A DNA stretch of 64,000 nucleotides from the human T2T-CHM13v2.0 reference genome, Homo sapiens. The stretch is from NCBI RefSeq assembly GCF_009914755.1, contig NC_060934.1, one strand, 5' to 3'. Shown here in pieces: positions 27,000-28,751 of this stretch (positions are counted from its first letter, which is position 1; each line of letters begins with the position of its first letter). Made by a program: the position numbers and the translations under genes. The notes below the pieces were generated by a model that was not told the origin of the DNA, did no database searches, and was given only the letters and a program-made list of their open reading frames with translations.

Positions 27000-28654
27000 T
27001 GGATTATTATTCAACAACGATCTCATTAAGGATTTAATTATCCAGGCGGCCAGGAAATGCTTGACCACATACAGTCACAGGGTCTGATCTCAACAGATGT
27101 CTTTTTTCAGCACCTGTTGGAGTCAACTTTGCCGCTAGCCCTTTCAATGGGATGGAGTTTTAATTTTCCAAAAGTAGCAAGCCAGCTGGAATGCTAGAAA
27201 TGCACATTTGCTGCTTCTGTTCCATTCTAGTAAACCATCTCCCGGATCACTATGTTGATCTCTTGAGTGTGTAGTTAATGACAGATGTCTACAAACACCA
27301 TTAGGATGGACTAGCAGCCTTGTTTGTAAAAGTTTATTGGAGGGAGTTGATTTCACATAATTAGCCAATAATGGAAAACAATGTTGTTTTTACCGTCTGA
27401 GAAGCCTGTCAACAATTGACTTGTTAAAAAACTAGAAATGTGATTGTAAATTGAAGAATGCAGAAAGCTTACCTAGAAAGCTGTTTCACAAATCCCCCAA
27501 GTGGAGAGTCTAAATTTGTGTTTGATGGTAATGGAATAGCTAATGTGTTACACAGCTTAATGTTAAACATACCCATGGCTGATTCTATGCAAAAGTATAC
27601 ATAAATAGGCTGTGTTAGTATCATTACCTCAAGTGCATTCATCATTTCTATCTATAGTGTAATACTGAATCAGGTGTTGCTGAGCTGAAGGTCACGGGTT
27701 ATGCATAGCTATTGAAATACTTTATTTTTGAGACAGCTGAATTACTCCCTGACCTGACGTTAGTGAGTGGGCAGATCATCTTCATCTTTATGCCTTCCTG
27801 TCCTTTCTAAAAATAGCAGGGCCTTTGACAAGGATATATTTTAAGCAGCTCATATTCACTTGTCTCATCAGGAGAAGCTTATTTTGGCCACTTGCATGCG
27901 TCAGGTTTGCATGTGTGCATAGTTAGACTTTTGGAATAGCAGTCCATGCTTCTCCACACCACTCATATAAGAAACTTGCAAACATAAAGACACTGAGATT
28001 GCTAGCTGAGAGTATTGGCTACAAGTCAGTGGGTACACAAAAATGAAGGGAAGACACTTTTTAGGAATGTGACTATGCTTCCGAAATCATCCATTTCGGA
28101 CATTTGTACATCAGTTCTCAGCTTCTCGGATCTGTTTTCATAAAACCTGGCTGTGATTTCGCTCCAGAGACCTCCGTGATCTTGCCGCTTTTAATAAATA
28201 TTTATAGGAGGCACTGCCAGCCTGTGGATAAGGGAAACTGATGAGAAACTGCCATCCGAAATCTGAACGGCAAAAACAAAACCAAGCAAAACCAAAAAAT
28301 CTAAAACAAAACCAAAAAAGAACAACTCAAACAATCCGTGTTCACAAGAAGACGCGTAGAAAAAGACCACCATGTAACTTTGATTTGATAACTGGATTTA
28401 TCAGTCACTTGACTGGCATGCAGTGGGTACTTTGCATTTTTCTACCGTACTTTGAAACACAAGTGCAAATTTATGTTATTCTGCACAACTGGGACCAAAA
28501 AATTATGAGTGTGAGAAAACACAAACTCTAAAAGCAAGATGGAATGTAAGCAGGTAAACCCTGTTCCACAGTCATGTCATTCTGGTACAGATGTACGTGG
28601 TACTCGTGTTTGCACCTCTAAGAAATTTCCATTTTTTCACATCAAAAAATCCAG
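27000..28654 (+). promoter_or_regulatory. Candidate intronic enhancer/internal promoter upstream of the first kinase exon
   Basis: No recognisable repeat. Perfect MEF2 site CTAAAAATAG at 27807-27816, CRE-like TGACGTTA at ~27756, TATA-like TATTTATA at 28199, ~14 CpGs in 28080-28610. Confidence 0.45.
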
Positions 28655-28751
28655 ATATGAAGCTGAAGCGGCTTTCTTCGCCAACCTGAAGCTGTCTGAT
28701 TTCAACATCATTGATACCCTTGGAGTTGGAGGTTTCGGACGAGTAGAACTG
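28655..28751 (+). CDS. PRKG1: PRKG1 coding exon (probably exon 10), 97 nt: [32 protein letters not shown], start of kinase domain with Gly-rich loop
   Basis: Acceptor ccag|A at 28651-28655 and donor CTG|gtaggt at 28752. GxGxxG motif (GVGGFG). Peptide recognised as PKG1; phase 0 end matches the next exon. Confidence 0.97.

What the first reader, a model, noticed from the sequence alone, without database searches (positions are those of the whole stretch)
28241..28751. In-frame strong-Kozak ATG upstream of the first kinase exon: possible kinase-only, PKMzeta-like PKG1 isoform
Seen: gcaAgATGG at 28539 (A at -3, G at +4) opens 39 stop-free codons ([39 protein letters not shown]) running through the acceptor in frame into YEAEAAFF...GVGGFG. 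The acceptor is unusually A-rich (ttcacatcaaaaaatccag), as might be expected under coding constraint. Upstream ATGs exist, including a 96-codon ORF ending 7 nt before this ATG. Established: PKG1 without its leucine zipper, autoinhibitory segment and cGMP-binding domains is cGMP-independent; PKMzeta arises from an internal PRKCZ promoter with a uORF-laden leader. Inference: a roughly 366-aa (length uses recalled full-length PKG1 size) monomeric, constitutively active kinase that retains the basic KILKKRHI segment. A 39-codon open frame can occur by chance, so the case rests on the combination of signals.
Basis: partly seen in the sequence, partly recalled or inferred. Interest (0 to 1): 0.8.

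Follow-up and report, generated by a model that had tools for sequence, protein, structure and literature searches.

The report
In-frame intronic ATG before PRKG1 kinase exon
An ATG in the intron just before the first kinase exon of human PRKG1 does open a stop-free frame into that exon and is kept in many mammals, but it sits in a generally conserved intron flank and nothing yet shows that a transcript or a kinase-only protein starts there.

Summary
ATG 28539 (gcaagATGg) opens 39 stop-free codons that run in frame into PRKG1 exon 28655-28751. The 96-codon ORF 28241-28531 ends 7 nt before that ATG.

In this window alone the pattern is not beyond chance. About 4-6% of random frames have a Kozak-type in-frame ATG before the first upstream stop, which gives roughly a 1 in 4 chance that one of the window's 7 exons shows it.

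The new finding is conservation. All 24 ORF clusters retrieved with the 39-residue leader, plus 4 more mammal-type representatives, keep the Met and a leader of 38-40 codons. They include gene models from a bat and a vole.

That evidence is weaker than it looks:
- The databases hold only start-codon ORFs, so species that lost the frame cannot appear.
- Sequence upstream of the ATG and downstream of the donor is about as conserved as the leader, yet carries stops and frameshifts.
- The invariant part of the leader coincides with the branch-point, pyrimidine-tract and acceptor region.
- Non-mammal vertebrates start at unrelated positions.

No paper, peptide or full-length human model was found.

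Verdict: most likely an incidental ORF in a conserved intron flank (about 0.75). A PKMzeta-like kinase-only PKG1 remains possible (about 0.13).

The parts
28539..28541 (+). In-frame ATG in the context gcaagATGg (A at -3, G at +4)
   Evidence: Met is invariant in 23 of 23 aligned 39-codon clusters and residue 2 (E, which gives G at +4) in 23 of 23. K precedes the Met (which gives A at -3) in the 4 of 4 clusters whose ORF starts further upstream.
28539..28654 (+). Intronic part of the open frame (39 codons, the last one completed by exon base 28655)
   Evidence: The first 22 codons are variable (0-12 differences from human per cluster). The last 17 are nearly invariant (0-2 differences).
28608..28654 (+). 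3' end of the intron: candidate branch point (ctctaag), pyrimidine tract (tttccattttttcacatc), A-run and acceptor cag. In this frame it reads [17 protein letters not shown].
   Evidence: Sequence. It is invariant or nearly so in all mammal-type clusters. SKKFPFF- and SKRFPFL-like strings also occur in non-mammal clades whose upstream ORFs are otherwise unrelated. The assignment of branch point and pyrimidine tract is by inspection, not by a scoring tool.
28655..28751 (+). PRKG1 coding exon that carries the glycine-rich loop ([32 protein letters not shown]), phase 2
   Evidence: Hub annotation; translation. Zero or one difference in all 24 clusters. Unique in the human assembly.
28473..28514 (+). 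Same-frame upstream ATG (28473) closed by TGA at 28506 and TGA at 28512. Other mammals have W, W at these two codons and therefore a longer ORF.
   Evidence: Human [20 protein letters not shown] against P0002 MLFCTTGTKKLWVWENTDSKSK is 19 of 22 identical.
28241..28531 (+). 96-codon ORF in another frame. Its first part is an A-rich low-complexity run.
   Evidence: In P0003's species the homologous stretch 28361-28444 (25 of 28 identical) is read in this frame and then shifts into the ATG frame, which indicates an indel between 28444 and 28455. The stretch is therefore conserved but not frame-constrained.
28000..28399 (.). Stretch with retained CpGs (observed/expected 0.68-0.70, against 0.19 for the window), GC 0.38-0.42. 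Not a CpG island.
28752..28814 (+). Read-through of the same frame into the downstream intron (20 codons, stop TAG at 28812)
   Evidence: Used as a non-coding control. In 6 of 22 genomic clusters this frame stays open for 39 or more codons (maximum 112).

Best explanation
The ATG and its 39-codon frame are an incidental open reading frame inside a conserved, single-copy intron flank of PRKG1. The block runs from at least about 300 nt upstream to at least about 340 nt downstream of exon 28655-28751.

The half of the frame nearest the exon is held constant by the branch point, the pyrimidine tract and the acceptor. The distal half drifts. It stays open in many mammals because local divergence is low and only 14 of 351 possible single-base changes would create a stop. 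In the normal mRNA this sequence is removed with the intron and codes for nothing.

Shown here: the anatomy, the conservation pattern and the chance levels. Inferred: that the conservation serves splicing or another non-coding role, and that no productive transcript starts here.
For: (1) Chance. A Kozak-type in-frame ATG before the first stop occurs at 4-6% of random frames in the window, so at least one of 7 exons would show it 24% of the time.

(2) There is no step in conservation at the ATG. Between human and P0002, the 22 codons before the ATG are 19 of 22 identical and the first 22 codons after it are also 19 of 22 identical. The upstream stretch carries two TGA stops in human where P0002-P0004 have Trp.

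(3) Further upstream, 28361-28444 is 25 of 28 identical to P0003 but in a different frame, which means a frame-shifting indel lies within the conserved block.

(4) The downstream intron, which is certainly non-coding, is alignable to P0002 as far as 29090. The same frame stays open for 39 or more codons there in 6 of 22 genomic clusters, up to 112 codons.

(5) The first 22 leader codons accept radical changes, for example C3 to F/L/I/S, D18 to V/L/F, and R20 to P/C/L. The invariant residues 23-39 coincide with the splice-signal region.

(6) A neutral simulation at the observed divergence keeps both the ATG and an open frame in 32-75% of lineages, so many retained lineages are expected without selection.

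(7) Outside mammals, 50 ORFs through the homologous exon start 5-145 codons upstream at unrelated positions. In one clade the Met of some members is Cys in others.

(8) Searching with the leader against proteins of 126-2000 aa found no full-length human model. It found only two computational models, one lacking an exon and one fused to a Dickkopf-like C-terminus.

(9) No paper or peptide was found. [quoted passage not shown]

(10) Eight upstream ATGs lie between 28043 and 28505. There is no strict TATA match and no CpG island.
Against: - Every retrieved mammal-type cluster keeps the Met: 24 of 24, and 4 of 4. Leader lengths are 38, 39 or 40 codons, so the only length changes seen are in frame.
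- In the 4 clusters whose called ORF starts further upstream, the Met is not needed for the ORF to be listed. All 4 still keep the Met, the K before it and the E after it.
- No ORF was found that ends inside the leader: 0 of 19 in the 39-125 aa search and none in the 30-38 aa search.
- The conserved block and the retained CpGs at 28000-28399 would also fit a conserved promoter and leader.
- Two unnamed non-mammal records, P0031 and P0077, join an intron-derived leader to downstream exons without introns. This is what an RNA beginning in this intron would give.
- The product would carry a complete kinase domain (Pfam 2-263 of 263). The isolated PKG1 catalytic domain has been crystallised on its own (6bdl, 6bg2, 6c0t).
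Confidence: 0.75

Rival explanations
1. An internal promoter in the intron, at about 28.0-28.5 kb, gives an mRNA whose first exon runs through the acceptor. Translation from ATG 28539 yields a protein of about 366 aa: a 39-residue, probably unstructured leader followed by the whole catalytic domain and C-terminal tail. It lacks the zipper, the autoinhibitory sequence and both cGMP-binding domains, so it would be monomeric and cGMP-independent, analogous to PKMzeta.
For: - The ATG, its Kozak context and a 38-40 codon frame are kept in all 28 mammal-type clusters retrieved. These include rodent-like sequences with 10-12 of the first 22 residues changed, and a distant group with in-frame length changes.
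- 4 of 4 clusters in which the Met is not needed for the ORF call still keep it.
- No truncated leader ORFs were found.
- The upstream block is conserved and retains CpGs.
- The kinase domain would be complete and it folds on its own (PDB 6bdl and others).
- Removing the N-terminal regulatory parts makes PKG I constitutively active (PMC10299703, passages read).
- P0031 and P0077 show the leader joined to spliced exons in non-mammals.
Against: - There is no transcript, peptide or literature evidence.
- The conservation evidence is ascertained, because only start-codon ORFs are in the libraries.
- Flanks that cannot be coding are equally conserved.
- The leader's first 22 residues are essentially unconstrained and the rest coincides with the splice signals.
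- The start is not shared by vertebrates generally.
- Up to 8 upstream ATGs precede it, including a 96-codon ORF, unless the start site lies within about 30 nt of the ATG.
- From recall, not from a call: constitutive PKG1 activity is pathogenic in human aorta, so such an isoform would have to be tightly restricted.
Confidence: 0.13
2. The frame is read only occasionally and without a function of its own. The source would be incompletely spliced PRKG1 RNA that still carries the 3' end of the very long upstream intron, or weak cryptic initiation of transcription. The products would be rare and unselected.
For: - The upstream intron is longer than 28 kb (the window starts inside it), so partly processed RNA that has this intron end but a spliced downstream junction is plausible.
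- P0031 has exactly that architecture: leader, exon, then the next exon, with a frameshift after that.
- The frame is open and has a good initiation context.
Against: Nuclear pre-mRNA is not normally translated. Nothing here shows that such RNAs reach ribosomes. This reading does not explain why the Met is kept, beyond the general conservation of the block.
Confidence: 0.1

Closest known systems
PKMzeta, from an internal promoter of PRKCZ
   Same: The proposed logic is the same: transcription starts inside the gene, the leader carries upstream ORFs, and the product is the catalytic domain alone and autonomously active. For PKMzeta I saw only search listings and abstracts (PMC5061749 on uORFs in the leader; PMC3517905 and others mentioning the internal promoter).
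   Different: For PKMzeta the mRNA and the protein are demonstrated. For PRKG1 there is no transcript or protein evidence, only an ORF that is kept in many mammals.
PKG I-gamma, the proteolytic fragment of PKG I-beta
   Same: It is a constitutively active form of PKG1 that lacks the N-terminal regulatory parts (PMC10299703, passage read: it lacks residues 1-167).
   Different: It is made by cleavage, not from its own mRNA. It keeps part of CNB-A, all of CNB-B and the kinase domain. The hypothetical product here would start about 15 residues before the kinase domain and keep no cGMP-binding domain. My searches for the primary papers found none in the library.
Drosophila FOR isoforms P2 and P4 (foraging, the PRKG1 orthologue)
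   Same: Internal promoters give PKG isoforms that lack the zipper and the autoinhibitory sequence (PMC10299703, passages read).
   Different: According to the passages read, those isoforms differ only in the N-terminal domain, so they keep the cGMP-binding domains. They are not kinase-only.
Isolated PKG1 catalytic-domain constructs (PDB 6bdl, 6bg2, 6c0t)
   Same: They cover the same catalytic domain. Residues 36-336 of the vole model align to residues 17-317 of the 347-residue chain. This shows the domain is stable without the regulatory half.
   Different: They are laboratory constructs. Their native N-terminal residues before the exon (...AKAK, seen in P0045) are replaced in the hypothetical isoform by the unrelated 39-residue leader.
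ALK-ATI, alternative transcription initiation in an ALK intron (recalled, not checked in any call)
   Same: An intronic start site yields kinase-domain-only proteins.
   Different: As I recall, it arises in tumours and has RNA and protein evidence. Nothing comparable is shown here.

Membership tests
Kinase-only isoform from an internal promoter (PKMzeta type) | A transcription start site inside the gene, upstream of the first catalytic exon | not testable with these tools
   No CAGE, EST or long-read data are available here. Sequence features are weak: no strict TATA match, no CpG island, and CpG observed/expected of 0.68-0.70 at 28000-28399.
Kinase-only isoform from an internal promoter (PKMzeta type) | An in-frame initiation codon with an open frame into the catalytic exons | tested here: met
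   ATG 28539 with A at -3 and G at +4, 39 codons, in frame with exon 28655-28751 and the following exons.
Kinase-only isoform from an internal promoter (PKMzeta type) | The product has a complete catalytic domain and lacks the regulatory domains | tested here: met
   Pfam Pkinase covers positions 2-263 of 263 at residues 56-314 of the vole model, which has the same architecture. There is no family hit in the leader. Constitutive activity is inferred, not tested.
Kinase-only isoform from an internal promoter (PKMzeta type) | The start codon and frame are conserved more than neutral drift would allow | tested here: inconclusive
   28 of 28 retrieved mammal-type clusters keep them. Against this, the libraries list only start-codon ORFs, a neutral simulation gives 32-75% retention, the flanks are equally conserved, and no DNA from other mammals was available for a codon-level test.
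Kinase-only isoform from an internal promoter (PKMzeta type) | The mRNA and the protein have been detected | not testable with these tools
   Nothing in print in the searched library. Supplementary tables were not searched.
Ordinary 3' end of a spliced intron | Branch point, pyrimidine tract and AG directly before an annotated exon, conserved across species | tested here: met
   The exon start at 28655 comes from the hub annotation. The last 17 leader codons are invariant or nearly so in mammals. Similar strings occur in other vertebrate clades. The assignment of branch point and tract is by inspection only.

The most novel reading that the evidence does not exclude
Mammals keep a second, intronic start for PRKG1. 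A transcript beginning a few hundred bases before the first catalytic exon would be translated from ATG 28539 into a cGMP-independent, kinase-only PKG1 of about 366 aa, with a free-evolving leader. It would be an analogue of PKMzeta in the NO/cGMP pathway. Intronless copies that carry the same leader in non-mammal vertebrates (P0031, P0077) hint that such RNAs are old.
Probability: 0.12. Interest if true: 0.75.

Novelty: not a real feature. Interest (0 to 1): 0.3.

Why it matters
PKG1 is the main effector of NO and natriuretic-peptide signalling in smooth muscle, platelets and neurons, and all current models treat its activity as gated by cGMP. A naturally encoded kinase-only form would be a cGMP-independent arm of that pathway. 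It would change how knock-outs, antibodies and PKG-targeted drugs are read.

As things stand the case is not made. It also adds that this conservation is no stronger than that of the neighbouring non-coding sequence. The question is cheap to settle with public CAGE, long-read and ribosome-profiling data and a mammalian genome alignment.

Tried and rejected
- I looked for DNA of other mammals to run a codon-level test. Scans of viral contigs and genome contigs gave only chance matches, L001 and L002. No metagenome scan was allowed, so dN/dS and an unbiased count of frame losses could not be done.
- Known RNA families in 27000-30000: three matches, all far below their gathering scores. I rejected the idea that the conserved block hosts a known snoRNA or miRNA.
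- Repeat or paralogue origin: the 520-nt stretch is single-copy in the human assembly.
- The homologous PRKG2 exon has a different 5' boundary and no intronic Met in its open stretch, so there is no parallel in the paralogue.
- The upstream AG at 28570-28571 (ccacag) as an alternative acceptor: it would add 83 nt and shift the frame, so it cannot explain the open frame (read).
- Paper searches for a truncated or kinase-only PRKG1 transcript, for accession numbers I recalled, for the proteolytic fragment and for leader peptides gave nothing relevant.
- The 'PRKG1 promoter' in PMC4120080 is the promoter of a lentiviral GFP cassette and has nothing to do with this locus (passages read).
- The search for short ORFs (30-38 aa) that would mark a leader closed by a stop found no candidates. 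The test has little power.

Full report
**Observation.** The window stretch 27900-28900 and the ORF list confirm each statement.
- ATG 28539 sits in gcaagATGg, with A at -3 and G at +4.
- It opens 39 codons (MECKQV...HIKKSR). The last codon, AGA, is made of the acceptor AG (28653-28654) and the first exon base (28655).
- The frame continues as [32 protein letters not shown] to 28751 and, after splicing, into [21 protein letters not shown]....
- The nearest in-frame upstream stop is TGA at 28512.
- The 96-codon ORF 28241-28531 lies in another frame and ends 7 nt before the ATG.
- The predicted size of about 366 aa is consistent with the bat model P0001. It has 336 aa and lacks exactly the 30 residues encoded by exon 46973-47062.

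**Chance.** I walked upstream from 200,000 random positions in the window.
- A frame stays open for 39 or more codons in 12% of cases, or 10% when the long repeat at 10391-16454 is left out.
- It contains an ATG with purine at -3 and G at +4 before the first stop in 6% of cases (4% without the repeat).
- It contains such an ATG 30-38 or more codons upstream in 1.2-2.8% of cases.
- With 7 exons in the window, at least one would show a Kozak-type in-frame ATG 24% of the time. With the gene's 18 exons the figure is 51%.
- Of the 7 exons only this one has it.
The human sequence alone therefore gives no significant signal.

**Conservation.** I searched the 5.8-billion-protein library with the leader (residues 1-40 of the 71-residue translation of 28539-28751).
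- Among proteins of 126-2000 aa it returned 5 of 5 candidates. Among proteins of 39-125 aa it returned 19 of 19.
- All 24 contain the exon preceded by a Met at the homologous place. 23 have a leader of exactly 39 codons and one (P0024, the most distant) has 38.
- Two are named gene models. The Pteropus alecto model has 336 aa. The Microtus ochrogaster model has 588 aa and a C-terminus that matches Dickkopf domains, so it is a fused model. Both are evidently computational.
- The other 22 are ORFs called on short unnamed contigs. They read from the intron through the exon and on past the donor.
- The representative library (1.84 billion proteins) added four more mammal-type ORFs, with leaders of 39, 39, 40 and 38 codons, all starting ME.
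- The sequences include rodent-like forms with 7-12 of the first 22 residues changed.

**Why this does not establish coding.**

First, ascertainment. These libraries list only ORFs that begin with a start codon. The leader and exon contain no other in-frame ATG, GTG or TTG in human (read). A lineage that lost the ATG or gained a stop would simply leave no entry. The only partly unbiased handles are small:
- In 4 clusters the called ORF starts further upstream, so the Met is not required for listing, and all 4 keep it.
- No ORF was found that ends inside the leader: 0 of 19 in the near-length search, and none of 30-38 aa.

Second, the neighbourhood is just as conserved (tblastn of the ORFs against the window).
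- P0002 aligns from 28473 to 29090.
- The 22 codons before the ATG are 19 of 22 identical to human, the same as the first 22 codons after it. Yet human has TGA at 28506 and 28512 where P0002-P0004 have Trp.
- P0003 matches 28361-28444 (25 of 28 identical) in the frame of the 96-codon ORF and then continues in the ATG frame from 28455, so an indel shifts the frame inside the conserved block.
- Downstream of the donor the first ten or so codons are again conserved (GDCSLNAF...). The same frame stays open for 39 or more codons in 6 of 22 genomic clusters, up to 112 codons in P0002. That sequence is certainly intron.

Third, the pattern inside the leader.
- Residues 23-39 ([17 protein letters not shown]) are invariant or nearly so. 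They correspond to the last 51 nt of the intron, where the branch point, the pyrimidine tract and the AG lie.
- Residues 3-22 take radical replacements.

Fourth, a neutral simulation. I used 5-20% divergence in the first 66 nt and 2-5% in the last 51 nt, which reproduces the observed 3-9 amino-acid differences. It keeps both the ATG and an open frame in 75-32% of trials. Only 14 of 351 single-base changes make a stop.

Fifth, beyond mammals there is no common start.
- 50 ORFs with other exon variants begin 5-145 codons upstream (median 38.5; 25 of 50 at 39 or more) with unrelated sequences.
- In one clade the Met of some members (..KMFH..) is Cys in others (..KCFT..).
- Strings like SKKFPFF and SKRFPFL recur just before the exon in these clades.

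**Surroundings.**
- The 520 nt are single-copy in the human assembly.
- No Rfam family reaches its threshold in 27000-30000.
- The homologous PRKG2 exon has a different 5' boundary and no intronic Met.
- CpG observed/expected is 0.68-0.70 at 28000-28399 against 0.19 for the window, at GC 0.38-0.42. This fits a constrained or hypomethylated element but is far from a CpG island.
- There is no strict TATA match. Eight ATGs lie between 28043 and 28505, so a start site more than about 30 nt upstream of the ATG would give a leader laden with uORFs.

**What the product would be.** In the vole model, which has the same architecture, the Pfam kinase domain is complete (positions 2-263 of 263, residues 56-314). 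The leader matches no family. The isolated PKG1 catalytic domain has been solved on its own (6bdl, 6bg2, 6c0t; query 36-336 aligns to chain 17-317). The native residues before the exon are ...EDAEAKAK (P0045). N-terminal truncations of PKG I are constitutively active, and a proteolytic fragment, PKG-gamma (lacking residues 1-167), is known (PMC10299703, passages read). A protein made from this ATG would therefore plausibly be an active, cGMP-independent kinase. That is inference.

**Literature.**
- Nine searches found no description of a third, kinase-only PRKG1 transcript, of the recalled accession numbers, or of leader peptides.
- PMC10299703 (passages) and PMC9417419 (abstract passage) speak only of I-alpha and I-beta.
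- PMC12592724 (passages) and PMC4120080 (passages) are irrelevant to this question.
- Supplementary tables were not examined, and subscription papers are not in the library.
- From recall only: RefSeq lists a shorter 'isoform 3' of PRKG1. I could not check where its first exon lies. The hub table shows only 1 of 7 transcripts.

**Leads for the isoform reading.** Two unnamed non-mammal records join an intron-derived leader to downstream exons.
- P0031 has the leader and the exon followed directly by [19 protein letters not shown], and then a frameshift.
- P0077 (451 aa, GC-rich) aligns in frame to the leader, the exon and the next exon (residues 13-68 against 24-80 of P0005), and again to the C-terminal tail (395-421 against 310-336). 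The middle part is unalignable.
They could be partly processed RNA, error-rich cDNA, or retrocopies of an RNA that began in this intron. Without their DNA this cannot be decided.

**Verdict.** The sequence observation is right, and the start codon is kept in many mammals. But every measurable property of the leader is matched by adjacent sequence that cannot be coding, and there is no evidence of a transcript. I put about 0.75 on an incidental ORF in a conserved intron flank. I put about 0.13 on a real kinase-only isoform and about 0.1 on occasional, functionless reading from incompletely processed RNA.

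Noticed in passing
P0077 (451 aa) and P0031 (121 aa), unnamed records: These are non-mammal ORFs in which a leader homologous to the intron end (..FPFFRVVK.. / ..[15 protein letters not shown]) is followed by the glycine-loop exon and the next exon with no intron between them. 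P0077 also ends with the native C-terminal tail, but its middle part is out of frame. They may be retrocopies or cDNAs of an RNA that begins in the homologous intron.
   Followed up: partly
window 28361-29090: The intron on both sides of exon 28655-28751 is conserved far beyond the usual splice-site flanks. It is alignable to P0003 from 28361 and to P0002 as far as 29090. The function of this block is unknown; it could be splicing control or an enhancer.
   Followed up: partly
window 28000-28399: CpG observed/expected is 0.68-0.70 in an otherwise CpG-poor window (0.19).
   Followed up: no
P0005 (Microtus ochrogaster model) residues 507-588: This public gene model fuses the PRKG1 kinase part to Dickkopf C-terminal subdomains (Pfam PF21481 and PF21479). 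DKK1 is the next gene downstream of PRKG1 in the hub table, so this is a read-through annotation artefact.
   Followed up: yes
P0033 and P0038 (unnamed): In one non-mammal clade a copy of the ..[16 protein letters not shown] block lies about 30-45 codons upstream of the real exon start (..SRYEAENAFF). This looks as if the acceptor region were duplicated or an insertion separates it from the exon.
   Followed up: no
window 28262-28330: An A-rich low-complexity run (aaaacaaaacc-like units) forms the first third of the 96-codon ORF. Its low T content helps explain why that ORF is so long.
   Followed up: no
PMC4120080: The text uses 'PRKG1 promoter' and 'PRKG1-GFP' for the promoter cassette of a lentiviral vector. 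This looks like a gene-symbol mix-up and could mislead text mining on PRKG1 promoters.
   Followed up: yes
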